The translations under genes and the position numbers were made by a program. The notes under the pieces are model-generated. The model did not search any database and was not told where the DNA came from. It was given only the letters and a program-made list of their open reading frames with translations. From an archaeon (GTDB taxonomy: Archaea; Nanobdellota; Nanobdellia; Pacearchaeales; GW2011-AR1), in contig JBDRJD010000034.1 of the NCBI GenBank assembly GCA_043815245.1, forward strand, positions 1,507 to 65,506: a stretch of DNA of 64,000 nt, given 5' to 3'. Within the stretch, counting starts at the first letter, position 1. Each line of letters opens with the position of its first letter. Shown here in pieces: positions 18,777-64,000 of this stretch.

Positions 18777-18819
18777 GCTTTATTAAGGTAAATTTGTTTT
18801 TTAGTCTATAAAAAAGAGA

Positions 18820-34017: not shown

Positions 34018-34336
34018 TTTTTTCAGCCTGAATCTGCAAACTTTCTTTGTATTCTACCACTTCTCCTATTACTTCTACATTTAAACCTGTATAATTGCTT
34101 TTGCAGTAGCAGGTTACTTGAATATTGCATGACTCTTGCTGAAGTGTTAAGACTTTAAGGGATTTGTATTGCTCTTGTTTTATGATTTTTCCAGTTATCC
34201 TGACTGATTTTTCTAAGAGGGGGTTTGAAATATCTCCACAAGATATCTCTTTTGGTTTTAGGATTATGGAGAGTGATAAAAGAAGGAATATTCCGCAAAT
34301 TGAAATTAATAGGGCTACCTTTAGCAGTTTTTCCAT
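34001..34336 (-). CDS. Membrane-anchored OB-fold-like protein
   Basis: N-terminal TM helix, then VRITGKII..LKVLTLQ..IQVTCY..VEVIGEVVEY, a beta-rich OB-like pattern. Confidence 0.4.
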   Translation of the reverse strand: MEKLLKVALLISICGIFLLLSLSIILKPKEISCGDISNPLLEKSVRITGKIIKQEQYKSLKVLTLQQESCNIQVTCYCKSNYTGLNVEVIGEVVEYKESLQIQAEKITPKS

Positions 34337-34409: not shown

Positions 34410-34889
34410 ATGATGAATAAAAAGGGATTGTTTGGCATTATTGGAATTGCTTTGATAGTAATTGCCTTTGTTTTTGGAGTTTATTTTGGAGTTAAGTATT
34501 ATATTAAGTATGGGGAGGATGTTGAAAATATAGTTTGTCCCGATGATGCGATGGTTTGCCCTGATGGTAGCACTGTTTCAAGGGTCTTACCTGATTGTGA
34601 GTTTGGAGAGTGCCCCGATGTTATTATTGTAGACGGAGATGATTCTCAGGGTTGTTCTGTCGCAGGAGAATTGGCCTTTGATGATGCTACTGGAGACTTA
34701 AAAGAGTGCTGTGATGGTTTACAGGAGGTAGCAAATATTCCTGATGCGGATACTAATCAGGAATGTGAAAATTATTTGAATATGGAAGGATTTGGTTCAA
34801 TTTGTGTAGAATGCGGTAATGGAATCTGTGAAGGGTGGGAGAACAGATGCAACTGTGCATTGGACTGTTTAAATAACACTGCAGCATAA
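34410..34889 (+). CDS. Secreted/anchored Cys-rich protein with a prepilin-like N-terminus
   Basis: MMNKKG-LFGIIGIALIVIAFVF N-terminus. The ectodomain has 15 Cys, counted from the translation (CPDDAMVCPDG..CEFGECPD..CVECGNGIC). Confidence 0.55.
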   Translation: MMNKKGLFGIIGIALIVIAFVFGVYFGVKYYIKYGEDVENIVCPDDAMVCPDGSTVSRVLPDCEFGECPDVIIVDGDDSQGCSVAGELAFDDATGDLKECCDGLQEVANIPDADTNQECENYLNMEGFGSICVECGNGICEGWENRCNCALDCLNNTAA

Positions 34890-52027: not shown

Positions 52028-52126
52028 TTTACCCTTTTGACTTCTCTATCATAGCACAGGATACCTACGGTTTCCTCTGCGGCACCTTCCCTCTAAATAG
52101 TTTTACCCCTTTGACTTTTCTATCAT
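52028..52126. repeat. 25-nt direct repeat (23/25 identical) duplicating the last 7 codons and stop of the 52103..52462 gene
   Basis: 52028-52052 tttacccttttgacttctctatcat versus 52102-52126 tttacccctttgacttttctatcat. On the minus strand both encode MIEKSKG-stop. The 49-nt spacer looks more GC-rich. Confidence 0.75.
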
Positions 52127-52462
52127 GTCTTTTACATCTTCGATTCTTGCGAACTTTAGTGGCTCAAACATTTTGAACTGGCGATAAAGAATCATTACTT
52201 CTTCTTTTCTTGCAAGTTCAGATATCTCTTCGAGGATTCTTTCCATGGTATCTTTCATCCTTGAGTTTTCTGCCTTGAGTATTTCTAAGTCTGCCTTTAT
52301 CTGTGCCAGATCTTCTTCTGTTTCTTCACGAGATTCAACTAAATTCTTGCTTACTAGTAGTACGCGGTCCTTCAACAATCTCTGACGCTCTTCTACATCT
52401 CTTAAGACTGTATTGAATTCACCTAGCAGTGGTGAGATATAGTCTCCTTCCTCTTGAGCCAT
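52103..52462 (-). CDS. Coiled-coil protein, divergent from the secretion ATPase
   Basis: Likely start is the ATG at 52462 (aaagaggttaaaATG); the ORF track start at 52558 is upstream. Long heptad-rich helix (LAQIKADLEILKAENSRMKDTMERILEEISELARKEE). Confidence 0.5.
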   Translation of the reverse strand: MAQEEGDYISPLLGEFNTVLRDVEERQRLLKDRVLLVSKNLVESREETEEDLAQIKADLEILKAENSRMKDTMERILEEISELARKEEVMILYRQFKMFEPLKFARIEDVKDMIEKSKG

Positions 52463-52569
52463 TTTAACCTCTTTAATTAAATACTTCTCCTTTAGAATAG
52501 CAGGTAAAGGGGGTTTAAAATTCTTCCGACAGTAAAGTATTTTAACTGAGTTTTGCATTTAGTTTTAAG

Positions 52570-54849
52570 ATGATGTTTAAAAAAGGGACTGTGCTTTATG
52601 CGTATGAGGTTATGCGAGAGTCTGGTGAAGATATCATGTATATCAATTATCTTGGAGCTCCGCTTGTGCCAAGTCTAGCTGATTCTGCTGAGGCTATGGG
52701 GCGAGCAATTGACTCTTTGTTAGCCACACCAAACGTTTCCAGGATGGTTTTTGTTCAGCAGAGAAATTACAGTTATGACTTTCAGCAGATTTCTCTGCTT
52801 ATTGAATTAGCCCAGCTGTATACTTATTTTTTAAAACAAGAAAAAATTCTTTCTCCTTCGAGGCTAGTTTTTCAGTGCCAGCAGTGTTTGGGAAATAGGC
52901 ATAACGATATGGTTTATTTTCTTTCTCTTCTTAAGACAGACCCTATTTATGCGTATGTGGAAGTTAAGAGGTTCTTACTCAGGGAGAGGGTGATGCTAGA
53001 GAAACTTCCTGCAGATTGCAAGGCTTGCCAGATGAATTATATTAGACTGCTAGAGAAGCTGTCCAGTTTTATGGAAAATACAACTTTGATTAAGCAGGCC
53101 GCAAATTATTTGGGAGACTATAAGTCTAGAGACCGAGAGATCTACAAAAACTTTTTCAGGCCTGATGTGATTCCGAATTTTACTTTTACGAGGCTAGTGG
53201 CGAGTTTACCAAAAAATGCTGAGATTGTGGAAGAGTATGAGATTGGCGAAAATTATGATAAAAGTTTAGTAACTATTTTAAAGAAAAGAGAGGAGGCCAA
53301 GTACCTTTATCATCTCATGCCCCCCGAATATTCTTTAGGGGAAGATCACCATCTGCTCCTGAACCTTGCAAGAAATGTTTTAATTGAGCATAAGCCCAAG
53401 GCAGAAGAATTCACAGATCCTGAAAGAACAAGGCAGGTTTTTTTTAATGTGGCTAGAGATTTATTGCAGGAGCTGGCTACTAATAAGAAAGTTTCTTTAA
53501 GTTATACTGATTTGAACAAGCTTGCGAAGATTTTGGTAAGACATACGATTGGTTTTGGTTTGATAGAGGTATTACTACAAGATACTAATTTACAAGATAT
53601 AGTGCTTAATGCTCCAATTTCCCAGAATCCGATTTTTGTGAGACATAATGAGTTTGACGAGTGCATGACTAATATTGTTCCAAATTATGAAGATGCAGAT
53701 TCTTGGGCTGCTAAACTTAGAATGATTTCTGGCAGGCCTTTAGATGAAGCTAATCCTGTGTTAGATACTGACCTATCTCTTGAAAAAACAAGAGCAAGAG
53801 TTGCGGTAATTCAGCAGCCTCTATCGCCTTACGGAATTTCTTATGCTTTGAGAAGGCATAGAGATGAACCGTGGACCCTGCCTTTATTTATTAAGTGTAA
53901 TATGTTGAATTCTTTTGCCGCGGGCCTAATGAGTTTTTTAGTGGATGGGAGTAGAACTCTGCTGGTTGCTGGCACTAGGTCTGCTGGAAAGACTTCTTTA
54001 TTGGGAAGCTTAATGTTGGAGATAATGCCTAAGTTCAGAGTAATTGTTATTGAAGATACCCTTGAGCTGCCTGCTGAGGCCTTAAGGAAGATTGGATATG
54101 ATATTTTAAGGATGAAAGTCAGAAGTGCTTTATTGCAAACTACTACTGAAGTGGAGGCTGCAGAAGGGATAAGAACTAGCTTGAGATTTGGGGATTCTTG
54201 TTTGATTATTGGGGAGGTTAGAAGTTCAGAAGCTAAGGCTTTATATGAGGCTATGAGAGTTGGAGCCTTAGCTAATGTTGTTGCGGGGACTATTCATGGT
54301 GCTTCTGCTTATGCTGTTTTTGACAGAGTCGTTAATGATCTTGGAGTGCCGGTTACTAGTTTTAAGGCTACTGATGCAGTAATCGTTGCTAACCCGGTTA
54401 AGTCTGCTGATGGGCTGCATTCGTGGAGAAGAGTTGTGCAGTTATCAGAAGTGAGGAAACACTGGACCAAGGATCCACTTGAAGAGAAGGGATTTGTTGA
54501 TTTGTTGAAGTATAATGTTGAAAAGGATATTTTAGAGCCTACTCAAGAGTTGATAAATGGGGAGTCTGAAATAGTTAAGGCTGTGGCTGCAAATGTTAAG
54601 GGCTGGGCGGGGAATTGGGATGCGGTTTATGATAATATTTTATTGAGAGGAAAGATAAAACAGGCAATTGTGGATATTGCTGAACAAACTAAGAAGCCTG
54701 ATTTATTAGAAGCTAAATTTAATTCCCTGTCTAATACTATTTTTTATGAGATTTCTGATGAGATAAGGCAGGAGATAGGTTTGCCTTTAAGCGAAAGGGT
54801 TTTTCCTGAATGGGAGAAGTGGATGAAAAAGTATGTGAAGAAGCTGTAA
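52570..54849 (+). CDS. Type II/IV secretion-family ATPase (FlaI/PilB/VirB11 superfamily) with a ~440-aa N-terminal extension
   Basis: Walker A AGTRSAGKTS (53971-53997), Asp box VIVIEDTLEL, Walker B LIIGEVRSSEA, His box GTIHGAS. 759 aa. Confidence 0.8.
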   Translation: MMFKKGTVLYAYEVMRESGEDIMYINYLGAPLVPSLADSAEAMGRAIDSLLATPNVSRMVFVQQRNYSYDFQQISLLIELAQLYTYFLKQEKILSPSRLVFQCQQCLGNRHNDMVYFLSLLKTDPIYAYVEVKRFLLRERVMLEKLPADCKACQMNYIRLLEKLSSFMENTTLIKQAANYLGDYKSRDREIYKNFFRPDVIPNFTFTRLVASLPKNAEIVEEYEIGENYDKSLVTILKKREEAKYLYHLMPPEYSLGEDHHLLLNLARNVLIEHKPKAEEFTDPERTRQVFFNVARDLLQELATNKKVSLSYTDLNKLAKILVRHTIGFGLIEVLLQDTNLQDIVLNAPISQNPIFVRHNEFDECMTNIVPNYEDADSWAAKLRMISGRPLDEANPVLDTDLSLEKTRARVAVIQQPLSPYGISYALRRHRDEPWTLPLFIKCNMLNSFAAGLMSFLVDGSRTLLVAGTRSAGKTSLLGSLMLEIMPKFRVIVIEDTLELPAEALRKIGYDILRMKVRSALLQTTTEVEAAEGIRTSLRFGDSCLIIGEVRSSEAKALYEAMRVGALANVVAGTIHGASAYAVFDRVVNDLGVPVTSFKATDAVIVANPVKSADGLHSWRRVVQLSEVRKHWTKDPLEEKGFVDLLKYNVEKDILEPTQELINGESEIVKAVAANVKGWAGNWDAVYDNILLRGKIKQAIVDIAEQTKKPDLLEAKFNSLSNTIFYEISDEIRQEIGLPLSERVFPEWEKWMKKYVKKL

Positions 54850-54851
54850 AA

Positions 54852-55457
54852 ATGGGAACGAAACAAAAAAAGGCTAGAAAAAAGAAATCAAAACCAGCTG
54901 GCTATGTTTTTCTTATTAAAAATTATAAGGCAGGGGCAGAACAGATGTGGGAGGCATATCACACCTGGAAGAATCAGGATTTTATCTCTGACAAAAAATT
55001 TAAGGAATTTAGAGAAAAATCAAAACCAGTTAGCAAGGCAGCGGCCTTAGAATATTTTAGAAGTGTGCTGAAGCACTTAAATACGCTTTACAAGCTGGAG
55101 GAAACAAGGAGTTTCTTGCGTTTAATGAAAATTCGCAGAAAAATCAAGCAAACTCAAAAGATTTTGGATTCTTATGAGGAACATTATGATGATATTGTTA
55201 AAGTGGCTTATAAAGGAGAAAGAAAGCACCCGAAACTAAGTCTACTGAAAAAGATTAGTTTATCTTTAATTTCTTTCATAGTATTTTTGTTGGGGATAAC
55301 TATGGTGGCTAGGAATCTTACTGGGAGTATGATTTCTCCTTTATTTGGATTAGCTGATTCTTTAGTTGCTTTGCTTTTTGTGGTTTTAGGATTTTATGGA
55401 ATTTACTATTGTGTTCTGAAGCCTATGAAAATTTTCAAAGTTGAGTTTTTAAAATGA
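54852..55457 (+). CDS. Hypothetical protein: basic N-terminus and two C-terminal TM helices
   Basis: ATG at 54852 lies 2 nt after the ATPase stop. MGTKQKKARKKKSKP.. then two hydrophobic helices at the C-terminus. Confidence 0.5.
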   Translation: MGTKQKKARKKKSKPAGYVFLIKNYKAGAEQMWEAYHTWKNQDFISDKKFKEFREKSKPVSKAAALEYFRSVLKHLNTLYKLEETRSFLRLMKIRRKIKQTQKILDSYEEHYDDIVKVAYKGERKHPKLSLLKKISLSLISFIVFLLGITMVARNLTGSMISPLFGLADSLVALLFVVLGFYGIYYCVLKPMKIFKVEFLK

Positions 55458-55534: not shown

Positions 55535-55726
55535 ATGGATGCAGTTGTGAAGATTGATTCTGAACTTAAAAAGAAAGCTGAAGCTTTAGTTAAAGAAAAG
55601 AGATTTGATTATCCTAATTTGAAGAATTTTGTAGACAAGGCAATTTTAATGTTATTGGAAAAGGAAGGTATAAAAAACAAAAAAACAATTAAAGTTGGTA
55701 AAAGGGGCAAAAACAATGAAAATTAA
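55535..55726 (+). CDS. Small ribbon-helix-helix (CopG/Arc-like) DNA-binding protein
   Basis: 63 aa. A beta-strand-like VVKIDSEL is followed by two helices (KKKAEALVKE; LKNFVDKAILMLLEKE) and a basic tail. Confidence 0.5.
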   Translation: MDAVVKIDSELKKKAEALVKEKRFDYPNLKNFVDKAILMLLEKEGIKNKKTIKVGKRGKNNEN

Positions 55727-55767: not shown

Positions 55768-57924
55768 ATGACTGATATAGATAAGATATTTAGTAAGTAT
55801 AGCTCAAAGATAGAGAAGAAAATGCAGCCGGGGGTGAGTGAAGTAGGAGAGAGTTATAGCAAGGATTTTATGCAGTTTAAAGAGGACATGATGCCTAGGC
55901 ATTCCAGGTATGAGAAGCTGTGCAATTCTCTTGGAAGCTTAGTTACTATGAAAGTAGCTAAAAAGGATGAAGTAAAGATTCAGAGGCATATTGATATTGC
56001 TCATTTGGATATTACTCCAAGCCAAGCCCTGACTCTTGCTTTGTTATCTCTGCTTGTAACTTTCTTTATTGGAGTTCTGATTTTTGTTGCTATTTATTTA
56101 ATTACAGGAGGATTGCCTTTATTGTTTTTCTTTTTAGTAGTTTTAACTGCGCTATTTTTGTTTTATTATGCTTATTCAACTCCTGCCAGGCTTGCTAATG
56201 TGTGGAGATTAAAGGCAAGTTCTCAGATGGTTCCTGCTATTTTATATATTGTAGCTTATATGAAACACACAAGTAATTTAGAAAGAGCAATTGCTTTTGC
56301 CTCTTCGCACCTGCAGGCTCCACTTTCTCTGGATTTTAAGAAAGTTTTCTGGGATGTTGAGACGAGTAAGTTCTCAACTGTTAGAGAGAGTTTAGACTCT
56401 TATATTGAGACTTGGAGGGATTATAATATTGAATTTGTTGAAAGCTTTCATTTGATTGAGAGTAGTTTGTTTGAGCCTAGTGAGGATAGGAGAATTGCTG
56501 TTTTGGAAAGGGCACTTCAAGTGATTCTGGATGGAGTTTATGAGCATATGCTTAAATATACTCATACAATCAGGAGCCCCTTGACTAATTTGTATATGCT
56601 TGGAATTGTTCTTCCTACTTTAGCATTAGCTTTACTTCCCCTAGCCTCTACCTTGCTTCAGGGCGTGATAAAGTGGTATCATATTTTTATATTTTTTAAT
56701 ATCTTAATTCCGTTTTTTGTTTATTACTTAACTAGTCAGATTATGCTTAAAAGACCGGGGGGATATGGAGAAACTGATATTTTAGAGATGAATCCTCTTT
56801 ATCCCAAGTATAATAGTAAAAGGCCTTATGTGATTGCCTTGTTAGTTACTTTGCCTTTGCTCATAATTGGACTGCTGCCTTTTTTGTTTCAGTTTACTCC
56901 TTTTCCAGAATTAGTTGGACTACAAACTGATTATACTTTTAAGGAAATAGGGGTGAGTTTTTTTGGTGATGCAAAACTTTTTGGGTTTTTAACTGATGTT
57001 GATGGACATACAGTCGGGCCATTTGGATTACTTGCTTTAATTTTAAGTTTTTTTATCCCCTTAGGAATTGCAATGTTCTTTTCAATTTCCTATAAACTAA
57101 AAAGCAAGGATCTGATAAAAAGCAGAGAAGATTCTAAGCAGCTTGAGCAAGAGTTTACTAATGCTTTATTCCAGCTTGGAAACAGGCTTGGGGATGGGAT
57201 GCCTGCTGAAATAGCTTTTGCTAGAATGAGTGAGTCTTCAAGAGGATTAGTGACTGAAGATTTTTTCAAGACTGTTAATACTAATGTTCAACAGATGGGA
57301 ATGAGTTTAGAAAATGCTATTTTTCATCCTAGGAGGGGGGCGATTATTTATTATCCTTCTGCTTTAATTAGCATTAGTATGAAAATACTGGTTGATGGTG
57401 TGAAAAAGGGGTTGCAGGTTGCTGCCAGAAGCTTGATGAGTATTTCTGAGTATGTAAAGAATATTCATAAGATTAATCAGAGATTGAGAGATTTGCTTGC
57501 TGAAGTTGTAAGTGATATGAAGAGCAATATGACTTTTTTAGCTCCTTTACTGGCTGGGATAGTAGTGGGGTTAGCAGCTATGATTACTATGATTTTAGGC
57601 AAGCTACAGAGTATGTTTGAATTTGGCACTTCAAGTGAGGTGGCGGGTTTTGGATTGGAAGCTGTTTTAGATATATTTAATGTAACTGCGATGATTCCGC
57701 CGTATTACTTGCAGCTTGCTATTGGGATTTACTTAGTCCAGATTGTGTTTATTTTAACTTCAACTCTGGTAACTGTAGATGCAGGTGAGGATAGACTAAA
57801 GAGGATTTACGAAACTGGGAGGAATTTGAAGTCAGGATTAACACTTTATACTATTGCTGCTTTGATTGCTGTAATTTCACTGGCTTTCCTTGCAATGATT
57901 GCCCTGGGCGGAATGGGAACTTAA
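55768..57924 (+). CDS. Type IV filament platform protein (FlaJ/TadC/PilC-like, two T2SSF-like repeats)
   Basis: 718-aa polytopic protein. It has two cytoplasmic helical domains, each followed by TM bundles (LERAIAFASSHLQAPLSLDF.. and LEQEFTNALFQLGNRLGDGMPAEIAFARM..GMSLENAI). Sits next to the ATPase. Confidence 0.65.
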   Translation: MTDIDKIFSKYSSKIEKKMQPGVSEVGESYSKDFMQFKEDMMPRHSRYEKLCNSLGSLVTMKVAKKDEVKIQRHIDIAHLDITPSQALTLALLSLLVTFFIGVLIFVAIYLITGGLPLLFFFLVVLTALFLFYYAYSTPARLANVWRLKASSQMVPAILYIVAYMKHTSNLERAIAFASSHLQAPLSLDFKKVFWDVETSKFSTVRESLDSYIETWRDYNIEFVESFHLIESSLFEPSEDRRIAVLERALQVILDGVYEHMLKYTHTIRSPLTNLYMLGIVLPTLALALLPLASTLLQGVIKWYHIFIFFNILIPFFVYYLTSQIMLKRPGGYGETDILEMNPLYPKYNSKRPYVIALLVTLPLLIIGLLPFLFQFTPFPELVGLQTDYTFKEIGVSFFGDAKLFGFLTDVDGHTVGPFGLLALILSFFIPLGIAMFFSISYKLKSKDLIKSREDSKQLEQEFTNALFQLGNRLGDGMPAEIAFARMSESSRGLVTEDFFKTVNTNVQQMGMSLENAIFHPRRGAIIYYPSALISISMKILVDGVKKGLQVAARSLMSISEYVKNIHKINQRLRDLLAEVVSDMKSNMTFLAPLLAGIVVGLAAMITMILGKLQSMFEFGTSSEVAGFGLEAVLDIFNVTAMIPPYYLQLAIGIYLVQIVFILTSTLVTVDAGEDRLKRIYETGRNLKSGLTLYTIAALIAVISLAFLAMIALGGMGT

Positions 57925-57954
57925 GTTTAAATATTTTAGAAGATGAAGATAAAT

Positions 57955-58095
57955 ATGAAAAAAGGTGATGTGGAAATTGATAAGCTTATTATTTGGATAA
58001 TTGTAGTTTTAGGCCTTGCTGTATTAGTTTTAGGAATTTTGTTTTTTACTAAGCGACTAGATCCAAGTAATCTTCTCAAATTATTTAGACCATGA
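57955..58095 (+). CDS. Unlisted 46-aa prepilin-like mini-protein
   Basis: MKKG-DVEIDKLIIWIIVVLGLAVLVLGILFFTKRLDPSNLLKLFRP. Its stop overlaps the next ATG (ATGA at 58092-58095). Confidence 0.5.
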   Translation: MKKGDVEIDKLIIWIIVVLGLAVLVLGILFFTKRLDPSNLLKLFRP

Positions 58096-58862
58096 AAGCG
58101 CAAATAGCTATAGGTAAGATGATTGGAATAGTTTTAGGAATTTTAGTTGTAGTTGTATTTGCATTTGTTTTAACACATAGTGATGGAGCTTATGCTGCGG
58201 TTGATAATCTAATTCCTAATTGGGGAAGTGGTGGCGGGGGTGGGGGGAATGTGGTGATTATTGATAGTGATAAAGGAAGTGCTAGTTCTGGGAGTGTTTT
58301 TGATATGGTGCAGTATGTTCAGGCTAATGGTATCAGGAATAGTGCAAATGAACTTAAAACTTGCAAGGAAGATTATTCTAAGTGGATTGAGCAATATGCT
58401 GCTGAAGAAAATATTAATCCTACATTGATTTTGGCTTTGATGATGCAGGAAAGTGACTGTCAGCAAGCTACTGAATCAGAGGCTGAAGGTGATAAAAAAT
58501 CCTGGGGAGTTATTCAGATTAATAAGGAAACTTATGATGATATTTGTAAAGGTGTTGGAAGCGGATTTGAAGATATAAAGGCTAGTGCTGAAAAAAGTGT
58601 CCAGTGTGGCATTAAGATATTAAAGAAAAAGTATGATTTATATGGGGCGTATGGTAAGCAAGATTATTATCAGGGTAAGGTGGAATCTAAATGTAATGAT
58701 CCACAGTATCTGCCTAAGTATCTTACCTATACTGGGTGGGATGCTGCATTAAGGGGGTATAATGGATTAGGGTGTATCCCTCCCTTGGCTGATACAGATT
58801 ATGTAGAGAAAATAAATGCAATTAAAACTGCTTTGGAAAGTGTGCAAAATGCTGAAAGATAA
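58092..58862 (+). CDS. Membrane-anchored lytic transglycosylase (SLT / GH23 domain)
   Basis: N-terminal TM helix, a Gly6 linker, then the three SLT motifs: LILALMMQES (Glu codon at 58449-58451), SWGVIQIN and AALRGYNGLG. Confidence 0.75.
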   Translation: MKAQIAIGKMIGIVLGILVVVVFAFVLTHSDGAYAAVDNLIPNWGSGGGGGGNVVIIDSDKGSASSGSVFDMVQYVQANGIRNSANELKTCKEDYSKWIEQYAAEENINPTLILALMMQESDCQQATESEAEGDKKSWGVIQINKETYDDICKGVGSGFEDIKASAEKSVQCGIKILKKKYDLYGAYGKQDYYQGKVESKCNDPQYLPKYLTYTGWDAALRGYNGLGCIPPLADTDYVEKINAIKTALESVQNAER

Positions 58863-59889
58863 AAAAGGAGCTGCTGAATTTGTATGGAAGGTTTTGACTA
58901 TTTTACTTTCTGTGATTTGCGTTTTAGCTTTAATTTTTATTGCTTATAAGATTTATAGTGTAGTTAATCACACTTCTGCAACAAAGCAGGCGCAGGCACA
59001 TATGGATGAGCTTGAAATTAAAATAAAAGAGCTTGTGCAGCAAGGAAATGGAGCGATTTTTGATGGTTATCTTGTATTGGGGCCTAAGGGGTGGAGGTTT
59101 ATTACTTTTGATAAGGATGATCCAAAACCAAAGCAGTGCAAGAAGGATTATTGTTTTTGTATTTGTGATGGAGAGAATGCAGATGATTGCAATAAGGCAG
59201 GAGTTTGTAAAGATACTGACAAGAGAGTAAGTTTATCTTTTGCAGGATTTGGCGATAAGTCTTTTGAAATCCTGGAGCATATGGCTTCTTTGGGAGTCAG
59301 GATAGTTAATGAAGAAGAGAGAATTGTTATTGGTGATCCGGATTATGCTCCTATCGGCAGCAAGCCTGATTTTATTTTTGATGATAATTATTTTAGTTAT
59401 CCTCAGAGCACTTCACCAGATGCTGTTCATCGAGAATTAGACGACAGTAAAATGAAAAATCTCCTAGAGGAAGATAATGTGCCTACTACTTCAGGGTTTA
59501 TAAGAGGGGCAATTTCACCTTCTGAATCTTATAATATTAATCCGCTAGTAGCTCTTGCTATTATAAAAATTAAGTATAATAATGTTGAGGATGCAGTTAA
59601 AAATAATAAACAAGATGAGATTGATTATGCAAAAAATTTAGGAGTTGATTGTGCTGAAAAAGGGCTTGCAACCTTAAGTTTATGCATTGGCAAAACTTTG
59701 GAAGAAGGGTTTGATGGCAAGGCAGATGCAGACGGTTTTAAAGCAGGAGTGGAAAAAGAGATAAATGGTAAGAAATTCACCCCAGATAATAAGGCCAGTG
59801 CAGTTTTATACTGGTATACTAGAGATTATGATAAGGCAATTGAAATAGCTCAGAAGGTAAGTGTTTACAGAGACTTTTATAATAGTTAA
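58849..59889 (+). CDS. Prepilin-like protein with a large Cys-rich ectodomain
   Basis: MLKDKKG-AAEFVWKVLTILLSVICVLALIFIA N-terminus, starting at the ATG at 58849. The ectodomain contains CKKDYCFCICDG..CNKAGVC. The C-terminal INPLVALAII segment weakly resembles an SLT start but has no ES. Confidence 0.55.
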   Translation: MLKDKKGAAEFVWKVLTILLSVICVLALIFIAYKIYSVVNHTSATKQAQAHMDELEIKIKELVQQGNGAIFDGYLVLGPKGWRFITFDKDDPKPKQCKKDYCFCICDGENADDCNKAGVCKDTDKRVSLSFAGFGDKSFEILEHMASLGVRIVNEEERIVIGDPDYAPIGSKPDFIFDDNYFSYPQSTSPDAVHRELDDSKMKNLLEEDNVPTTSGFIRGAISPSESYNINPLVALAIIKIKYNNVEDAVKNNKQDEIDYAKNLGVDCAEKGLATLSLCIGKTLEEGFDGKADADGFKAGVEKEINGKKFTPDNKASAVLYWYTRDYDKAIEIAQKVSVYRDFYNS

Positions 59890-59890: not shown

Positions 59891-60019
59891 ATGAAAAATA
59901 TAAAATATAAAAAAGCATTTATAAGCTGGCAGTTACTTAAGATAGCGTTAGTGGTAGGAATAGTTTTGATATTTATGTTTGCTATGTATTATGCACTTAA
60001 AGCGCTAGGAATCATGTAA
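59891..60019 (+). CDS. Unlisted 42-aa single-TM mini-protein
   Basis: MKNIKYKKAFISWQLLKIALVVGIVLIFMFAMYYALKALGIM. It fills the gap between its neighbours exactly (1-nt spacers). Confidence 0.4.
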   Translation: MKNIKYKKAFISWQLLKIALVVGIVLIFMFAMYYALKALGIM

Positions 60020-60020: not shown

Positions 60021-61034
60021 ATGAGGAAACTAAAAGCAAGAAAAAAAGGTGAGCTGACTTCGAGCCAGCTGGCATTGTTGATTTTAGCTGTAATGAGTTT
60101 TTTAGTTTTACTTGGATTCTGGTATATGCTTAATATAGAGCATGAAATGAATAGCTGGTGGTGTCATTTTAGTGTTGTTTTAAGAGCTACTTTAAATAAA
60201 ATTGGAGGGGGTGCTCTGGAACTTGGGCAGTATATTGAGCTGGCGTGCAGGACTGAGAAAGTTTGTGTTCAAGAGGGTGGAGAGGGGTGTGGGGGGATTA
60301 TTGGCACTAAGGATAATCCGATTCAAAATGAAAAAGTTGATGATAAAAGAGATGTGATGAATGTGATGGCTGAAAAATTATATGAGTGTAATTCTGTTCT
60401 AGGAGAGGGAAAGATTAATTTTATGCCTTCACAGACCTTTAAGCAGAATTATTGTTTAATTTGCAGTAGAATTGCCTTTGATGATAAGGTGAAGGGAGAT
60501 ATAAAGCAAATTGGGGTGGGGGAGCTGTATCAGTATATGGAAGAAGAAAAGAAAAACAGAAGAGGAGATTCTTATTTAAGTGTTATTTATCCTGGGTGGA
60601 GCTCTTGGAAAGATTATGAAGAGCATTTTGCAGAAATGAAAAATAAAGATGATGCTATGCAAGAGGAAAGCGAGAGAAAGCTGACTGGTATTGATAATCC
60701 TGAGCAGTGGATTTATGATTTAGAACATGATGAGACTGGTTATGCTGTTGTATTTCAAATGCAAAAGAAGGGGAAGTTTTTGTCAATGTCTGCCTCAGCT
60801 CTTTCTGCAATAGGGGTGGTAATTGCTATTCCTTTTGCTGCATCAGGAGTTGGGTTGCCTATTGGATTGGGGATTATTGGAGCCTCACTGCAGGCGGGAG
60901 CTTTAGTTGGGGGAGGAGTTTATTGGTATTCTAATCCTAATGGAGAATTTGAGTATGCGCCTCCCGTGATTTTACCTTATAATGCAGGGATTCTCGATGG
61001 GTTAAAATGTACAGAATTTAATACTGCTTTTTAG
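60021..61034 (+). CDS. Prepilin-like protein with Cys-containing ectodomain and a C-terminal Gly-rich TM segment
   Basis: MRKLKARKKG-ELTSSQLALLILAVMSFLVLLGF N-terminus. C-terminal segment GVVIAIPFAASGVGLPIGLGIIGASLQAGALVGGG. Confidence 0.55.
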   Translation: MRKLKARKKGELTSSQLALLILAVMSFLVLLGFWYMLNIEHEMNSWWCHFSVVLRATLNKIGGGALELGQYIELACRTEKVCVQEGGEGCGGIIGTKDNPIQNEKVDDKRDVMNVMAEKLYECNSVLGEGKINFMPSQTFKQNYCLICSRIAFDDKVKGDIKQIGVGELYQYMEEEKKNRRGDSYLSVIYPGWSSWKDYEEHFAEMKNKDDAMQEESERKLTGIDNPEQWIYDLEHDETGYAVVFQMQKKGKFLSMSASALSAIGVVIAIPFAASGVGLPIGLGIIGASLQAGALVGGGVYWYSNPNGEFEYAPPVILPYNAGILDGLKCTEFNTAF

Positions 61035-62758
61035 CCATAGGTTAATCTGAATTTTCCAAGTGCCCACTTTTCAGGATTTGCACCTTTTTCATTGTCTACT
61101 ATCCCTATTGCGTGTGTGTCTGATATTATTATTGGGGGGCTACGAGGCATCCACTGAGAATCACGCAGTTTATTACGTTCACTAGTATGTATTTCAAATA
61201 TGGGTTGTTGGTTTCCATGGGTGTCAGATACCCCTAGAATATATGTCTCTCTTCCTTGCCAAAACTTTGCAGTATGGAATGTAAACATTTTACTGTCTGT
61301 AGACCATTGAGGGCGGTATGAGAAAAAAGTTCCACGAACCCATCCTGCACTTCTTCTCATACATGTTGTGGAGTCATAATACTCTAGTTCTTCTCTTTTC
61401 TTTATATCCTTTATAAACAGAATCTTTTTTCCATCTGGTGAGGTGTTTGCAAAACTCGTTCCATTTTCACCACTTATTTTACATCCGCGAAAGTATGTTC
61501 CATCAGCTCTTTTTTCAACTTGACCAGGGAGTATATCTGGAAAATGTATGTCTGTTGATTCAATTTCTTTAATTTCTCCTGTGCTTAGGTTAATTTCATG
61601 AATCTGAGAGCCCTGATACATTAACACGTTGTTTTTATCTTTAAATCTTGTAGGCATCTCTATAGCCCCCCTGTCTGTCACGCCTATTCGTGGGGTGTAC
61701 TTAACCCTAACTAACTCTTTATTCTTAAAGTCAGCACTCGTGACTCTCAAGTACCCTGCAGGCATTGTTGCCTCTACTGAAAGAATCCTATTAGTAGAAG
61801 GGTCAAAATCGCACAAGTGGGGAACTTGTGCTCTATCATCAACTTCTTCTAAAATCATGCCAGTAGGCAGTCCTCCTACTTTTATCCCGAGCTTTCCAAG
61901 CTCTTTCGAGTATTTTTGGAGAGTTTCTGCAGAACCTATTGGGACTAGGACTTCTAAATGAGAACGCCTGCTTCCAAGAGAGTCAAGTGAAGGAGTAAAC
62001 TTATCAGTGTTAGTTGTTATTTTTGCAATTGCTAAATAATTTTCTGATGCTGTGGGATAGCGCCGTATTTTGAAGCTTTCTGCAACTTTATTTCCAAGCG
62101 AGAAAGAGGCCATATCCTCTAAACCATTAATTTCATTGTTTGTAAGTGCAATGTAATTTTTTCCCAGTACTTTTTCAATTGCATCTTCGAGATTGTCTAT
62201 GCTTGGTTTTTCTTGAGAAGCCCGCCCTGATTCAGCTGAGGTTTGAGCAGTGCCTGCATAGGGTATTTGCGCGCGGGTAATTTGCCACATTAGTTCTGTT
62301 ACACTTTTTAGATATGGCTGTGAAAGCAGGTCTTCCCACACTGGCTTTCCAAGCTTGCCTACAGCTTTTCTTTTTTCTGAAACTTCTGCTTCTTTTAGTT
62401 CTGTTCCACTAGGCACGAATATATCTACTTTAGAAACAAGTTGCATAATTGTTTTTTCAGTTGGGTCTATTGGTGCGATGTTAATGTAAATATGGGTTCT
62501 GCTAATACCTGTTTGTACTAGAAAGTCAAGAGTATCATTTGTTGAACGCCCTGCACCTGTTGTTGGGCTTACTTTAAAAGTTTGTGCATAGGACCTTTCT
62601 GCATTGTGCGCTGTTTCAAGATGAGAGCCTTCAAAGGTATTCCCTTCTGCAGATACTGAAGGAGGCAGAACTAGATTTGCTCCCATTGCCCAGAGTCCCG
62701 TGCCCGCTGCAGCTACTGGAAAATCTCTGAATAACCACTGTCTTCTTGTGCTTCCCAT
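61031..62758 (-). CDS. Secreted protein with twin-arginine-like signal and C-terminal TolB/PD40-like beta-propeller repeats
   Basis: MGSTRRQWLFRDFPVAAAGTGLWAMGA (S-T-R-R-x-W-L). PD40-like TSPDGKKILFIKD and YRPQWSTDSKMFTF. Confidence 0.55.
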   Translation of the reverse strand: MGSTRRQWLFRDFPVAAAGTGLWAMGANLVLPPSVSAEGNTFEGSHLETAHNAERSYAQTFKVSPTTGAGRSTNDTLDFLVQTGISRTHIYINIAPIDPTEKTIMQLVSKVDIFVPSGTELKEAEVSEKRKAVGKLGKPVWEDLLSQPYLKSVTELMWQITRAQIPYAGTAQTSAESGRASQEKPSIDNLEDAIEKVLGKNYIALTNNEINGLEDMASFSLGNKVAESFKIRRYPTASENYLAIAKITTNTDKFTPSLDSLGSRRSHLEVLVPIGSAETLQKYSKELGKLGIKVGGLPTGMILEEVDDRAQVPHLCDFDPSTNRILSVEATMPAGYLRVTSADFKNKELVRVKYTPRIGVTDRGAIEMPTRFKDKNNVLMYQGSQIHEINLSTGEIKEIESTDIHFPDILPGQVEKRADGTYFRGCKISGENGTSFANTSPDGKKILFIKDIKKREELEYYDSTTCMRRSAGWVRGTFFSYRPQWSTDSKMFTFHTAKFWQGRETYILGVSDTHGNQQPIFEIHTSERNKLRDSQWMPRSPPIIISDTHAIGIVDNEKGANPEKWALGKFRLTYG

Positions 62759-62850: not shown

Positions 62851-63237
62851 ATGCTTAGAAAAAGAGGTATGAGTGAGCTACTTGAAAGGATTTTATTTAT
62901 AGTGCTAAATATAATATTTTTCTCTATTGTTTTGCTGTTTGTGTCGGGGGCTTTTTCAGGTGCTTTGCTGTTAGAAAAAAGCTATGCTAAACAGTTTGCA
63001 CTGACGATTGATTCAGCGAGTGAGGGAAGTGAGTTTATAATTGATTTTTCTGAAGGATTAGAAATGGCAAAAAGCAGGGGAGTTAATCCGGAAGTTAGTG
63101 TAGACAATAAAAGAAATGTTGTTAAAGTAAAACTAGATAATGGAAAGGGATATGAGTATGATTTTTTTAATGATGTTGAAGTTGAGCTTGGATTTCAGGA
63201 TATGAGTATGGATAAAATTAAGATTGTTATAAAATGA
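62851..63237 (+). CDS. Prepilin-like protein
   Basis: MLRKRG-MSELLERILFIVLNIIFFSIVLLFV, followed by a ~90-aa beta-looking domain. Confidence 0.55.
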   Translation: MLRKRGMSELLERILFIVLNIIFFSIVLLFVSGAFSGALLLEKSYAKQFALTIDSASEGSEFIIDFSEGLEMAKSRGVNPEVSVDNKRNVVKVKLDNGKGYEYDFFNDVEVELGFQDMSMDKIKIVIK

Positions 63238-63650
63238 ATCGAAAGGGAACTAATTTAATGAGTGTATGGTGGTTTGTTGTGCTTATAGCTGTTACTTTTT
63301 TTATTAGTGCAAGTGTTGTGATGATTAGGGCTAAGGAAGTTGATGTAAGAACTTTGGAAGCTCAGATATTGAATAGTAAGATTTATGATTGTTTACAGGA
63401 AAAAGAGAAGCTAGATAACTTGATTTCAGATGATTTTGGGAGTTTGAACGAAGAATGTGGATTGAAGCTTGATAATGAATTCTATGTTTATATTAAAGTA
63501 AATGAAAAGGAGTTAAAATTTGGCAATCCGGATGCTGAAGTGGCGTGTCAGTTAGATGTGAAGAACAGGAAAAAACTTCCGCAGTGTTATTTAAGGGATG
63601 GAGATATTGAGATTTTAACTGCTGTGTTTAAGGTGGAGCAAAATGTTTAG
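63234..63650 (+). CDS. Prepilin-like protein
   Basis: MNRKG-TNLMSVWWFVVLIAVTFFISASVV. ATGA overlap with the upstream gene. Confidence 0.55.
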   Translation: MNRKGTNLMSVWWFVVLIAVTFFISASVVMIRAKEVDVRTLEAQILNSKIYDCLQEKEKLDNLISDDFGSLNEECGLKLDNEFYVYIKVNEKELKFGNPDAEVACQLDVKNRKKLPQCYLRDGDIEILTAVFKVEQNV

Positions 63651-64000
63651 GAAAGGTCAGATTGGGGCGCTGTTGACTTGGCTTCCTTCGTTAGTTATAA
63701 TCTTGATGGTGGGATTTATCTTACTTGCAGTTGTGTTGAGTATGGAGATTAAAGATTTGGATGCCAGTGAAGAGTTAAATGCAGGGGATTTGGCTTCAAG
63801 TAGTTTAGTGAGTTTTATGAATTCAGAAGTGCCTTTTCAGGAACAGGTTTGGAAGATGACTGATTTGATTGCTTATTGGGCTGTTTCAGAAGATGAAGAA
63901 GCTGCTAAAATTATTGAAAGTGAGGTCGAGCTGTTTTTTCCTGAAAGAGGGTTTGAACAGTACACTTTTCAAATTAATGGTAAGAATATGGGGTCTAGTT
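63643..64000 (+). CDS. Prepilin-like protein; 3-prime end cut by the window edge (not in the ORF track)
   Basis: ATG at 63643 overlaps the previous gene by 8 nt. MFRKG-QIGALLTWLPSLVIILMVGFILLAVVL is a textbook archaeal class III signal shape (KG then Q). The frame stays open to nt 64000. Confidence 0.6.
   Translation, partial: MFRKGQIGALLTWLPSLVIILMVGFILLAVVLSMEIKDLDASEELNAGDLASSSLVSFMNSEVPFQEQVWKMTDLIAYWAVSEDEEAAKIIESEVELFFPERGFEQYTFQINGKNMGSS

What the first reader, a model, noticed from the sequence alone, without database searches (positions are those of the whole stretch)
58092..58862. SLT/GH23 lytic transglycosylase in an archaeal genome, embedded in the pilus-like operon
The 256-aa protein has an N-terminal TM anchor and a Gly6 linker. 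It then carries all three family-1 SLT motifs in the right order and spacing: catalytic Glu-Ser (LMMQES, Glu codon at 58449-58451), GVIQI, and YNGLG. SLT enzymes cleave the MurNAc-GlcNAc bond of bacterial murein, which archaea do not make. In bacteria, dedicated SLTs sit in T4SS, T3SS and T4P loci (the VirB1/EtgA class) to open the producer's own wall. Here the producer should have no such wall, so the likely substrate is a foreign bacterial sacculus. That points to predation, parasitism or attachment to bacteria, or scavenging of muropeptides. The start overlaps the upstream mini-pilin (ATGA) and the stop overlaps the next prepilin-like gene, so co-expression with the filament genes is likely.
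Basis: partly seen in the sequence, partly recalled or inferred. Interest (0 to 1): 0.8.

Follow-up and report, generated by a model that had tools for sequence, protein, structure and literature searches.

The report
Wall-cutting enzyme in archaeal pilus locus
A tiny symbiotic (DPANN) archaeon that has no bacterial-type cell wall encodes a real bacterial-wall-cutting enzyme inside its pilus gene cluster, and in relatives the same enzyme is fused directly onto pilus subunits, which suggests that these archaea use a pilus to breach or hold on to bacterial cells.

Summary
ORF 58092-58862 encodes a 256-aa protein with an N-terminal helix, a Gly-rich linker and a family-1 SLT/GH23 domain. Pfam SLT scores above threshold, the predicted fold matches Slt/MltC/MltE and goose lysozymes, and the catalytic Glu is kept in 199/201 relatives. 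The contig is archaeal (PolD) and belongs to the Woese-/Pace-/Nanoarchaeota group.

The gene lies in a tightly packed type IV pilus-like locus. The same linkage recurs in at least 19 species-level genomes. In relatives the SLT domain is fused to four different pilin-type modules of this locus. Three loci also carry a pilin with an inserted N-acetylmuramoyl-L-alanine amidase. Two independent murein-specific enzymes on pilins point to bacterial peptidoglycan as the target. Four loci found through a pilin gene, not through the SLT, lack the SLT, so it is an accessory add-on.

Murein transglycosylases in DPANN archaea are already published, but as giant proteins, and GenBank already names this ORF an SLT-domain protein. 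I found no report of the pilin-borne form or of its link to the pilus locus. Function is inferred, and the window's own N-terminus is the least canonical prepilin signal. Verdict: new variant of known kinds; interest 0.63.

The parts
52103..52558 (-). 151-aa coiled-coil protein transcribed divergently from the ATPase gene; a conserved neighbour of the locus
   Evidence: tblastn finds it in the same position in 6 homologous loci at 36-43% identity. Pfam gives only a weak FlaC_arch hint, E=0.04.
52570..54849 (+). 759-aa secretion/pilus-assembly ATPase of the archaeal GspE/TadA/FlaI type
   Evidence: Pfam T2SSE E=4.8e-15. The best PDB sequence matches are A. fulgidus GspE 2oap at 2.7e-30, CpaF at 1e-19 and FlaI at 1e-16. 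NCBIfam FlaI and TadA hits are below threshold. It is 64-76% identical to the ATPase in homologous loci.
54810..55457 (+). 215-aa protein with a C-terminal TM segment, function unknown; not conserved in related loci
   Evidence: ORF; no Pfam family; no tblastn match in other loci.
55535..55726 (+). 63-aa basic protein, function unknown; not conserved in related loci
55768..57924 (+). 718-aa polytopic membrane protein in the position of the pilus platform protein (PilC/TadC/FlaJ-like, inferred)
   Evidence: At least 8 hydrophobic segments. About 58% identity in 21 loci, always directly after the ATPase gene. It has no Pfam, NCBIfam or PDB match of its own. Two homologues give sub-threshold T2SSF hits: L013 C-terminal half E=0.005 and L061 N-terminal half E=3e-4. 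hhalign found no internal repeat.
57943..58095 (+). 50-aa mini-pilin candidate, MKINMKKG|DVEIDKLIIWIIVVLG...
   Evidence: Class III-type N-terminus. Equivalent ~50-aa genes (KRG|IISEYLPW...) follow the platform gene in all related loci. No Pfam family.
58092..58862 (+). The finding: a 256-aa membrane-anchored or pilin-like lytic transglycosylase. Helix at about residues 4-39, disordered Gly-rich linker at about residues 30-66, SLT/GH23 domain at about residues 93-254.
58224..58247 (+). Codons for G45-S46-G47..G52, the Gly-rich flexible linker
   Evidence: Sequence read directly; pLDDT below 50 over residues 30-66.
58449..58451 (+). Codon of the catalytic Glu120 (gaa) in the LMMQES motif
   Evidence: The residue is invariant in A1 and kept in 199/201 family domains. 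It aligns with the E-S motif of MltC.
58849..59889 (+). p357: a 346-aa Cys-rich prepilin-like protein, MLKDKKG|AAEFVWKVLTILLSV...
   Evidence: Class III-type N-terminus. Homologues occur in 11 loci. Its N-module is fused to an SLT domain in L029, E=7e-10. No Pfam family.
59891..60019 (+). 42-aa mini-pilin candidate, MKNIKYKKA|FISWQLLKIALVVGIVLIF...
60021..61034 (+). p337: a 337-aa prepilin-like protein, MRKLKARKKG|ELTSSQLALLILAV...
   Evidence: Class III-type N-terminus; homologues in 22 loci; no Pfam family.
62851..63237 (+). pil128: a 128-aa pilin-like protein, MLRKRG|MSELLERILFIVLNIIFF...
   Evidence: K4, G6 and E12 are invariant, followed by a hydrophobic helix. The AF2 model shows a ~50-residue N-terminal helix plus a beta-sheet, pLDDT 79, but Foldseek found no pilin match. 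Homologues occur in 21 loci. It is fused to an SLT domain in P0018/L071, L018 and L035.
63234..63650 (+). pil138: a 138-aa pilin-like protein, MNRKG|TNLMSVWWFVVLIAV...
   Evidence: The family has 305 members, mostly standalone proteins of about 170 aa in Pace-/Nanoarchaeota. It is fused to SLT in L014, L022 and L023 and carries an inserted Amidase_2 in L071, L018 and L040.
63643..64000 (+). A further pilin-like ORF that runs off the window end, MFRKG|QIGALLTWLPSLVIILMVGF...
   Evidence: weak homologue in L029.

Best explanation
The ORF encodes a catalytically competent family-1 lytic transglycosylase (GH23/SLT). It is an accessory component of a type IV pilus-like (Tad/Epd-like) machine that is widespread in Woese-/Pace-/Nanoarchaeota.

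Shown:
- The enzyme domain, its fold and its catalytic motifs.
- The archaeal host genome.
- The operon-like packing and the conserved synteny.
- In relatives, the SLT domain is grafted onto at least four different pilin-type N-terminal modules of this same locus.
- A second murein-specific enzyme (Amidase_2) is inserted into another pilin of the locus in some species.

Inferred: the protein is exported with its N-terminal helix in the membrane. It is then either processed by the locus's A24 prepilin peptidase and incorporated as a minor or tip subunit of the filament (a 'modular pilin'), or it stays anchored at the machine's base on a flexible linker of about 35 residues. Its SLT head cleaves the MurNAc-GlcNAc bonds of a bacterial cell's peptidoglycan at the point of contact. 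This would let the archaeon attach to, penetrate or feed on a bacterial partner. Because the producer makes no murein, the substrate is foreign.
For: Enzyme:
- Pfam SLT above threshold.
- AF2 core pLDDT of 80-95.
- All top Foldseek PDB hits are Slt, MltF, MltC, MltE, Slt70 or g-type lysozymes, each with probability 1.0.
- Profile matches to MltC at 1.6e-6 run through the E-S and GLMQ motifs.
- Glu is kept in 199/201 domains.

Machine:
- T2SSE ATPase close to archaeal GspE, CpaF and FlaI.
- A polytopic platform-like protein.
- Six of the 9 ORFs (of 151 in the window) that fit a fixed class III rule lie consecutively in 57.9-63.7 kb.
- An A24 prepilin peptidase lies downstream in 18 homologous loci.

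Linkage:
- 19 of 66 species-representative loci carry the SLT inside this locus.
- 19 of the 21 complete short forms are in that context.

Pilin nature:
- Most complete short forms begin with [KR][KR]G followed by a hydrophobic helix.
- Fusions exist to pil128 (E from 1e-19 to 8e-23), pil138 (1e-9 to 1e-10), p357-N (7e-10) and the KRGD pilin, which also exists as a standalone 110-aa protein (4e-12).

Substrate:
- pil138::Amidase_2 (PF01510, E from 9e-20 to 3e-25) sits beside pilin::SLT in L071, L018 and L040.

Other:
- No Mur-type genes were seen among the window ORFs scanned.
- The literature already proposes bacterial interaction for DPANN SLT proteins (PMC8204110, PMC9723730).
- The modular-pilin principle is established in bacteria (PMC8179133).
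Against: - No experiment exists: activity, substrate, processing and localisation are all inferred.
- The window's own N-terminus (MKA|QIAIGKMIGIVLG...) lacks the [KR]-G motif, and the mini-pilin HMMs did not hit it. It may be a simple signal anchor and not a prepilin.
- No A24 peptidase lies in the window. The locus runs into the window end, and the last 1.5 kb of the contig could not be fetched.
- The platform protein has no significant family match.
- The pil128 model has no Foldseek match to solved pilins.
- The SLT is absent from 4 of 4 loci found through a pilin gene, so the pilus works without it.
- Class III signals in archaea also occur on non-filament proteins, such as the Sulfolobus bindosome (established knowledge).
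- A pilus-tip enzyme could not reach the murein of a diderm bacterium without first crossing the outer membrane.
- No host of these lineages is known.
Confidence: 0.55

Rival explanations
1. Surface-anchored scavenging enzyme (bindosome-like). The pilin-type N-terminus serves only to anchor and organise the hydrolases at the cell surface through the T4P-like machinery, as Sulfolobus does with sugar-binding proteins. The enzymes digest free peptidoglycan debris, and the anhydro-muropeptides are taken up as a source of amino sugars and amino acids. No living host is attacked.
For: Class III signals on non-filament proteins are known in archaea, and NCBIfam lists the bindosome ATPase BasE among the sub-threshold matches of the ATPase, E=9e-16. 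SLT plus amidase together produce small muropeptides. One locus (L061) has a GH3 NagZ-type glycosidase next to an SLT protein. DPANN archaea have very limited biosynthesis (PMC8204110). The window's enzyme has only a linker of about 35 residues and an atypical prepilin signal.
Against: The ATPase is closer to FlaI and TadA than to BasE. The locus carries many pilin-like genes, including ~50-aa mini-pilins typical of filament-forming systems. No muropeptide transporter or catabolic genes are linked in the window. The GH3 linkage was seen only once.
Confidence: 0.22
2. Non-murein substrate. The GH23 domain has been re-purposed to cut another GlcNAc-containing polymer, such as chitin, a host archaeal glycan or pseudomurein, or the producer's own glycocalyx. 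It says nothing about bacteria.
For: Some GH23 enzymes act on chitin oligomers; MltE and g-type lysozymes crystallise with NAG oligomers or chitopentaose (titles of the hits). All cultivated DPANN archaea have archaeal hosts (PMC11291902 abstract). The family is highly divergent: only 1,396 representatives match the profile, and extra conserved Cys residues are present.
Against: All three family-1 motifs that contact MurNAc/GlcNAc are intact. Amidase_2, which cleaves the MurNAc-L-Ala bond found only in murein, is grafted onto a pilin of the same locus in three species. Pseudomurein has beta-1,3 links to N-acetyltalosaminuronic acid and resists lysozyme-type enzymes (established knowledge).
Confidence: 0.1
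3. Released antibacterial weapon. The T4P-like machine acts as a type II secretion-like piston, or the enzyme is shed, so that SLT (with or without amidase) kills competing bacteria at a distance, as shown for other archaeal peptidoglycan hydrolases.
For: Archaeal PG hydrolases that kill bacteria are documented (PMC12352652). T2SS and T4P are homologous machines. The enzyme is extracellular.
Against: T2SS substrates are not themselves pilin-like. Here the enzyme carries the pilin-type or anchor helix and is repeatedly fused to pilin bodies, which argues for retention on the machine. A lone lytic transglycosylase is a poor lysin against intact diderm cells (established knowledge).
Confidence: 0.08
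4. Self-wall remodelling (a true VirB1/EtgA/BfpH analogue). The archaeon has a murein-like layer of its own, and the SLT opens it for pilus passage.
For: This is the role of dedicated SLTs in bacterial T3SS, T4SS and T4bP operons (PMC10880428). The operon position is analogous.
Against: Archaea are not known to make murein. No Mur/MraY/PBP-type gene was found among the 30 window ORFs scanned. Four of 4 sampled loci with the same pilus have no SLT, so the pilus does not need it for assembly. The profile search shows no affinity to the EtgA/VirB1 subfamily.
Confidence: 0.04

Closest known systems
[quoted passage not shown] 2021, PMC8204110; GH23 of Vigneron et al. 2022, PMC9723730)
   Same: The SLT domain belongs to the same clade. 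The window's domain is 40-42% identical to those of giant proteins in L005 and L006, and short and giant forms interleave in an NJ tree. The lineages and the proposed target (bacterial murein) are the same.
   Different: The published proteins are 1,000-3,000 aa with Sec-type signals and lie outside pilus loci; 36 of the 66 loci are of that type. This protein is 256 aa, has a pilin-type or anchor helix, and sits inside the pilus operon. Its short relatives are fusions to pilin modules.
Dedicated lytic transglycosylases of bacterial envelope-spanning machines: BfpH (EPEC bundle-forming pilus), PilT of type IVb pili (S. Typhi/R64), EtgA, IagB, IpgF, VirB1 (PMC10880428)
   Same: Each is a small SLT-fold enzyme encoded within the operon of a filament or secretion machine, including type IV pili.
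   Different: Those enzymes open the producer's own sacculus and are periplasmic or lipoproteins. Here the producer has no murein, and the enzyme carries a pilin-like or anchor helix. By sequence it is nearest to MltC, not to the EtgA class.
Modular type IV pilins, such as PilB (vWA module) and PilC (lectin module) of Streptococcus sanguinis (Raynaud et al. 2021, PMC8179133)
   Same: An N-terminal pilin module is joined by a linker to a grafted functional module that is presumed to be displayed at the filament tip. The DPANN pil128::SLT, pil138::SLT, p357N::SLT, KRGD::SLT and pil138::Amidase_2 proteins have this architecture.
   Different: The described modules are mostly adhesins and lectins, plus two predicted peptidases, and the survey covered bacteria via IPR012902. 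No SLT or lysozyme term was found in the held supplement text. Here the modules are murein hydrolases and the organisms are archaea.
E. coli MltC, MltE and Slt70 (family 1 lytic transglycosylases, GH23)
   Same: The catalytic E-S, GLMQ and YNxG motifs and the lysozyme-like helical fold are shared.
   Different: Identity is only about 13-16% in structural alignments. The DPANN clade has extra conserved cysteines and a different N-terminal architecture. The producer is an archaeon.
Tad/Flp and archaeal Epd-type pili (TadA/CpaF ATPase, TadC platform, tiny Flp pilins, TadE/F pseudopilins, A24 peptidase)
   Same: A CpaF/TadA-like ATPase, mini-pilins of about 50 aa, several larger pseudopilin-like proteins, and an A24 peptidase in homologous loci.
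   Different: No component other than the ATPase and the A24 peptidase reaches a Pfam threshold. mini2 gives only a sub-threshold Flp1_like hit, E=7e-4. The locus type is not mentioned together with any hydrolase in the archaeal TFF censuses.

Membership tests
SLT / GH23 family-1 lytic transglycosylase (Pfam PF01464) | Match to the SLT profile above the curated threshold | tested here: met
   E=3e-9, 36.9 bits against a cut-off of 21.3, residues 99-186.
SLT / GH23 family-1 lytic transglycosylase (Pfam PF01464) | Catalytic Glu in an E-S motif at the end of a helix | tested here: met
   LMMQE120S121. The motif is invariant in 21 homologues, Glu is kept in 199/201 family domains, and it aligns with the IMQ(I/T)ESS motif of MltC.
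SLT / GH23 family-1 lytic transglycosylase (Pfam PF01464) | Motif II (G-L-M-Q) and motif III (A/G-Y-N-x-G) in order and spacing | tested here: met
   G139-V-I-Q142-I and R-G-Y223-N-G-L-G. G139, Q142, Y223, N224 and G225 are invariant.
SLT / GH23 family-1 lytic transglycosylase (Pfam PF01464) | Lysozyme-like alpha-helical fold | tested here: met
   The AF2 core has pLDDT 80-95. All 50 top Foldseek PDB hits are lytic transglycosylases or g-type lysozymes, with probability about 1.0 and TM about 0.5 normalised on g-lysozyme. Phage SLT proteins top the BFVD search.
SLT / GH23 family-1 lytic transglycosylase (Pfam PF01464) | Non-hydrolytic cleavage of MurNAc-beta-1,4-GlcNAc giving 1,6-anhydro-MurNAc | not testable with these tools
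   Needs an enzyme assay on sacculi with HPLC-MS of the products.
Type IV pilin / class III signal-peptide protein | Short basic leader ending in G/A, followed by about 20 hydrophobic residues forming an extended helix | tested here: inconclusive
   The window protein reads MKA|QIAIGKMIGIVLGILVVVVFAFVL, with a predicted helix at residues 4-39 but no [KR]-G. Most complete short homologues have a clear [KR][KR]G|hydrophobic N-terminus.
Type IV pilin / class III signal-peptide protein | Cognate A24 prepilin peptidase, assembly ATPase and platform protein encoded with it | tested here: inconclusive
   The ATPase criterion is met. The platform is assigned only by position, TM topology and sub-threshold T2SSF hits in homologues. 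No A24 peptidase is in the window, but one is present in 18 homologous loci plus L073-L075.
Type IV pilin / class III signal-peptide protein | Pilin fold of neighbouring subunits recognisable against solved pilins | tested here: not met
   The pil128 model has the helix-plus-sheet layout, pLDDT 79. Foldseek against the PDB gives no pilin hit; the top match is ribosomal protein uL6 at E=0.017.
Type IV pilin / class III signal-peptide protein | Processing by the peptidase and incorporation into a filament | not testable with these tools
   Needs biochemistry or cryo-EM.
Modular pilins (pilin module plus grafted functional module) | The same functional domain is found covalently joined to bona fide pilin modules of the locus | tested here: met
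   pil128::SLT in P0018 at 1e-19, L018 at 3e-18 and L035 at 8e-23. pil138::SLT in L014, L022 and L023, E from 1e-8 to 1e-10. p357N::SLT in L029. KRGD pilin::SLT, with a standalone KRGD pilin in L071. This is a family-level result; the window protein has only a helix, a linker and the SLT domain.
Machine-dedicated LTs (VirB1/EtgA/IagB/BfpH class) | Encoded in the operon of the envelope-spanning machine | tested here: met
   Start and stop overlap the flanking pilus genes; synteny holds in 19 species.
Machine-dedicated LTs (VirB1/EtgA/IagB/BfpH class) | Sequence affinity to the EtgA/IagB/VirB1 subfamily | tested here: not met
   A profile search of all PDB sequences at E<=1 returns only MltC, MltE and Slt70.
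Machine-dedicated LTs (VirB1/EtgA/IagB/BfpH class) | Acts on the producer's own sacculus and is needed for machine assembly | tested here: not met
   The genome is archaeal. No murein-synthesis gene was found among the scanned window ORFs. The same pilus locus exists without an SLT in 4 of 4 sampled genomes. Only 64 kb of this genome was visible.
DPANN giant SLT-domain surface proteins (Castelle 2021 fam00969) | Homologous SLT domain of the DPANN clade | tested here: met
   40-42% identity to the SLT domains of the 2,052-aa and 3,029-aa ORFs in L005 and L006; the forms are mixed in the NJ tree.
DPANN giant SLT-domain surface proteins (Castelle 2021 fam00969) | Very large multidomain protein (1,000-3,000 aa) with a Sec-type signal | tested here: not met
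   256 aa, consisting of one helix, a linker and the SLT domain.

The most novel reading that the evidence does not exclude
A subset of Woese-/Pace-/Nanoarchaeota arm a type IV pilus with murein-degrading heads: a lytic transglycosylase, sometimes joined by a MurNAc-L-Ala amidase, carried on pilin subunits. This would make the filament a contact-dependent tool for breaching the bacterial wall or anchoring to it. It would be the first molecular device described for archaeon-on-bacterium episymbiosis or predation. The presence or absence of this accessory module would then predict whether a DPANN lineage's host is a bacterium or an archaeon.
Probability: 0.35. Interest if true: 0.85.

Novelty: new variant of a known kind. 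Interest (0 to 1): 0.63.

Why it matters
The hosts and attack mechanisms of the very abundant, uncultivated Woese-/Pacearchaeota are unknown, and every cultivated DPANN archaeon so far lives on another archaeon. A murein-specific enzyme set physically built into pilus subunits gives a concrete, testable mechanism for interaction with bacteria. It also gives a genomic marker (pilin::SLT and pilin::amidase) for picking lineages and samples in which to look for bacterial hosts. It extends the 'modular pilin' principle to archaea and to enzymatic, wall-degrading heads. The ectodomain is small and easy to express, so substrate specificity (murein, pseudomurein or chitin) can be settled quickly.

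Tried and rejected
1. p357 as a degenerate SLT paralogue, suggested by NINPLVALAIIKIKYNN versus NINPTLILALMMQES. BLASTP shows no significant similarity, so this is rejected.
2. Internal duplication of the 718-aa membrane protein as a test for a GspF/TadC-type platform. hhalign found none, but the alignment is shallow (Neff 2). The result is inconclusive.
3. Sequence searches of the platform protein against PDB, Pfam and NCBIfam found nothing.
4. Foldseek of the pil128 model against the PDB found no pilin hit.
5. Phage origin: tblastn of the SLT domain against 50,697 phage genomes gave no match. Only fold-level similarity to phage SLTs exists.
6. Recent horizontal transfer: the gene's GC content of 0.36 equals that of its flanks.
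7. Bacterial mis-bin, or a bacterial (CPR) version of the locus: L012, labelled 'Patescibacteria', carries RadA, aIF2-alpha and RPA. L041, labelled 'bacterium', carries TFB and S3Ae. Both are archaeal.
8. A24 peptidase in the window: none found. Attempts to fetch the remaining 1.5 kb of the contig failed because the window's proteins are not in the gene-position index.
9. The sigma-70 promoter and terminator scan is uninformative for an archaeon.
10. Flp-motif membership of the first mini-pilin: no Pfam Flp hit. mini2 gives only a sub-threshold Flp1_like hit.
11. Mini-pilin HMMs against the window's own N-terminus gave no hit, although some sister proteins are hit.
12. The supplement of the modular-pilin survey contains no SLT or lysozyme terms, but only 32 kb of its text is held.
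13. tRNA and Rfam scans of the window were empty.
Full report
**Observation**

The ORF at 58092-58862 (+) exists as described. Its ATG overlaps the stop of a 50-aa upstream ORF (ATGA), and its last codons overlap the next gene. The product has four parts:
- a hydrophobic N-terminal helix;
- the run WGSGGGGGGN;
- LMMQES, with Glu120 encoded at 58449-58451;
- GVIQI and RGYNGLG.

Pfam's SLT model matches above its gathering score (E=3e-9, 36.9 versus 21.3 bits). The window is archaeal. PolD small and large subunits lie at 200-4931, and the protein is 100% identical to GenBank MFH1501177.1, 'MAG: transglycosylase SLT domain-containing protein [archaeon]', on a 65.5-kb contig. The SLT call itself is therefore already in the public annotation.

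**The enzyme**

An AlphaFold2 model built on 21 homologues has a confident core, with pLDDT 80-95 over about residues 93-189 and 215-254. It also has one long N-terminal helix (residues 4-39) and a disordered linker (residues 30-66). Foldseek against the PDB returns only lytic transglycosylases (Slt, MltF, MltC, MltE, Slt70) and goose-type lysozymes. E-values are modest (2e-3) but probabilities are 1.0. Against viral models it returns phage SLT proteins.

A profile of the family matches the PDB sequences of MltC (1.6e-6), MltE and Slt70, through the catalytic E-S and GLMQ motifs. No EtgA-type enzyme appears. E120, S121, Q142, Y223, N224 and G225 are invariant in the first 21 homologues. Across 204 non-identical family domains, Glu is kept in 199 of 201 ungapped sequences and Ser in 195 of 202.

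**The family**

An exhaustive profile search of 1.84 billion cluster representatives finds only 1,396 proteins at E<=1e-3 and 146 at E<=1e-30. This is a distinct, narrow clade.

A scan of one genome per GTDB species gave 66 loci, almost all labelled Woese-, Pace- or Nanoarchaeota, with a few Aenigmat- and Undinarchaeota. The two 'bacterial' labels that could be tested are wrong:
- L012 ('Patescibacteria') carries RadA, aIF2-alpha and RPA.
- L041 ('bacterium') carries TFB and ribosomal protein S3Ae.

No match exists in 50,697 phage genomes, and the gene's GC content equals that of its flanks. There is thus no sign of recent transfer.

The family has two architectures:
- 36 loci hold giant ORFs of 800-3,000 aa with Sec-type signals and the SLT near the C-terminus. 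[quoted passage not shown]
- 21 loci hold complete short forms of 245-511 aa.

Short and giant domains interleave in a neighbour-joining tree, and the window's domain sits among giant ones. The tree has no support values, so I treat this only as a hint of domain shuffling.

**The locus**

Upstream of the SLT gene lie:
- a 759-aa T2SSE ATPase, closest to A. fulgidus GspE, CpaF and FlaI;
- a 718-aa polytopic membrane protein in the platform position. It has no family match of its own, but two homologues give sub-threshold T2SSF hits, one in each half;
- a 50-aa mini-pilin candidate.

Downstream come five more proteins with [KR]-G/A plus hydrophobic-helix N-termini, and a sixth that runs off the window end. 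Under one fixed motif rule only 9 of 151 window ORFs qualify, and 6 of those 9 are consecutive in 57.9-63.7 kb.

tblastn of these proteins shows the same gene set next to the SLT in 19 of the 66 species loci. The ATPase is 64-76% identical and the platform about 58%. An A24 prepilin peptidase lies just downstream in 18 loci. None is in the window, which ends 350 nt after pil138, and the remaining 1.5 kb of the contig could not be retrieved.

pil128 has an invariant K-x-G and a conserved Glu before its helix. Its model has a ~50-residue helix plus a beta-sheet. Foldseek did not match it to any solved pilin, so its pilin status rests on signature and context only.

**What links enzyme and pilus**

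Most complete short SLT proteins begin with a class III-type signal, for example NKRGD|IPITILVIGVV. More tellingly, the SLT domain is covalently joined to different pilin modules of this same locus in different species:

| Pilin module | Where it is fused to SLT | Evidence |
|---|---|---|
| pil128-type | P0018/L071, L018, L035 | E from 1e-19 to 8e-23 |
| pil138-type | L014, L022, L023 | E from 1e-8 to 1e-10 |
| p357 N-module | L029 | E=7e-10 |
| KRGD pilin | common short form | also exists as a standalone 110-aa protein in L071, E=4e-12 |

In L071, L018 and L040 the pil138-type pilin carries an inserted Amidase_2 domain (N-acetylmuramoyl-L-alanine amidase; Pfam E from 9e-20 to 3e-25), directly beside the pilin::SLT gene. 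Two mechanistically unrelated, murein-specific hydrolases grafted onto subunits of one machine argue strongly that the substrate is true peptidoglycan. Chitin and pseudomurein are much less likely.

**The SLT is accessory**

Searching with the pil138 module finds 305 proteins. The top 120 are all standalone proteins of about 170 aa, and those that carry a name are from Pace- or Nanoarchaeota. Four loci chosen through that pilin (L073-L076) have the same core locus and the same downstream genes (A24 peptidase in L073-L075 but not called in L076; HIT and aEF-1beta in all four; RPA and RadA in L073-L075). None has an SLT or amidase, as checked with 204 domain queries and a six-frame HMM scan. The pilus is therefore a core feature of these archaea, and the hydrolase heads are add-ons in a subset. 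This also argues against a VirB1-like role in assembly.

**Caveat for the window's own protein**

Its N-terminus (MKA|QIAIGKMIGIVLGILVV) lacks the basic-Gly motif. It occupies the position of a second ~55-aa mini-protein (mini2...EQLIKIILGILVV...) that is missing from this locus as a separate gene. Mini-pilin HMMs hit several sister proteins (E from 8e-8 to 2e-5) but not the window's protein. mini2 gives only a sub-threshold Flp1_like hit. This member may be a mini-pilin::SLT fusion or simply a signal-anchored enzyme, and I could not decide between the two.

**Mechanism**

Best-supported reading (confidence 0.55): an active lytic transglycosylase is held on, or built into, a type IV pilus-like machine and acts on foreign bacterial murein at cell contact. 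The main rival is bindosome-like surface anchoring for scavenging of wall debris (0.22). A single GH3/NagZ-type neighbour in L061 hints that way. Lesser rivals are a non-murein substrate (0.10), a released antibacterial weapon (0.08) and self-wall remodelling (0.04).

**Novelty**

Three things are known: SLT/GH23 proteins in DPANN archaea, machine-dedicated SLTs in bacterial pilus operons (BfpH, PilT; PMC10880428), and modular pilins (PMC8179133). Two archaeal type IV filament censuses do not mention any transglycosylase, peptidoglycan or lysozyme. Full-text searches combining these lineages, pili or pilins, and transglycosylase returned nothing. The pilin-borne SLT and amidase, and their conserved pilus linkage, therefore appear to be a new variant of known kinds, within the limits of the open-access library searched.

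Noticed in passing
window 61031-62758 (- strand); compare L071 3471-4928 (- strand): A 575-aa gene on the opposite strand interrupts the pilus locus between p337 and pil128. It has a twin-arginine-like N-terminus (TRRQWLF), a weak TolB beta-propeller hint (E=0.003) and a GC content of 0.39-0.41 against about 0.35 nearby. It has no homologue in any related locus. L071 has an unrelated 485-aa opposite-strand gene inserted at exactly the same position, which suggests an insertion hot spot.
   Followed up: partly
L061 3232-10249: An 852-aa SLT protein lies next to a divergent platform-like membrane protein (T2SSF E=3e-4, below threshold) and a GH3 glycosidase (Glyco_hydro_3, E=2e-35). NagZ-type enzymes of that family process the anhydro-muropeptides that lytic transglycosylases produce. 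This was seen in one locus only.
   Followed up: no
L012, L041, L071/P0018 (public records): Public taxonomic labels are wrong or doubtful. JAHYJW010000004.1, 'Patescibacteria group bacterium', carries RadA, aIF2-alpha and RPA. DAITPU010000001.1, 'bacterium', carries TFB and S3Ae. HTY44074.1, '[Patescibacteria group bacterium]', sits in the DPANN-type pilus locus. Several 'uncultured Methanosarcinales' bins also hold this DPANN family.
   Followed up: partly
window 34410-34889 (+) and 34001-34336 (-): A further pilin-like ORF (MMNKKG|LFGIIGIALIVIAFVF..., 159 aa) and a small divergent membrane ORF lie 18 kb from the pilus locus. They have no Pfam family.
   Followed up: no
L073-L076, L002, L012 (downstream of the pilus locus): The pilus locus has a strikingly conserved genomic neighbourhood across species: A24 peptidase, then a HIT-family protein, aEF-1beta, RPA and RadA. 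The window's copy lies at a contig end, so this could not be checked there.
   Followed up: partly
window 52103-52558 (-): A 151-aa coiled-coil protein, divergent from the ATPase gene, is conserved in the same position in 6 related loci at 36-43% identity. Its only family hint is a weak FlaC_arch hit (E=0.04). It may be a regulatory or accessory subunit of the machine.
   Followed up: no
window 5701-19806: A sugar-metabolism cluster lies in this region. It holds a glutamine amidotransferase, a GDE_C/GH100-like enzyme, an MFS transporter, a GH130 mannoside phosphorylase, two GT4 glycosyltransferases, a PIG-L/LmbE-type de-N-acetylase, a GHMP kinase, a bacterial-type PGI and GAPDH. The de-N-acetylase could act on GlcNAc-containing compounds. 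No murein-synthesis genes were seen.
   Followed up: no
L071 5948-7126; L073 9391-9504: The Amidase_2 domain is inserted inside the pil138-type pilin, not appended to it. The last ~38 residues of the fusion match the C-terminus of standalone pil138. This resembles the way GspK carries a domain inserted into its pilin fold.
   Followed up: partly
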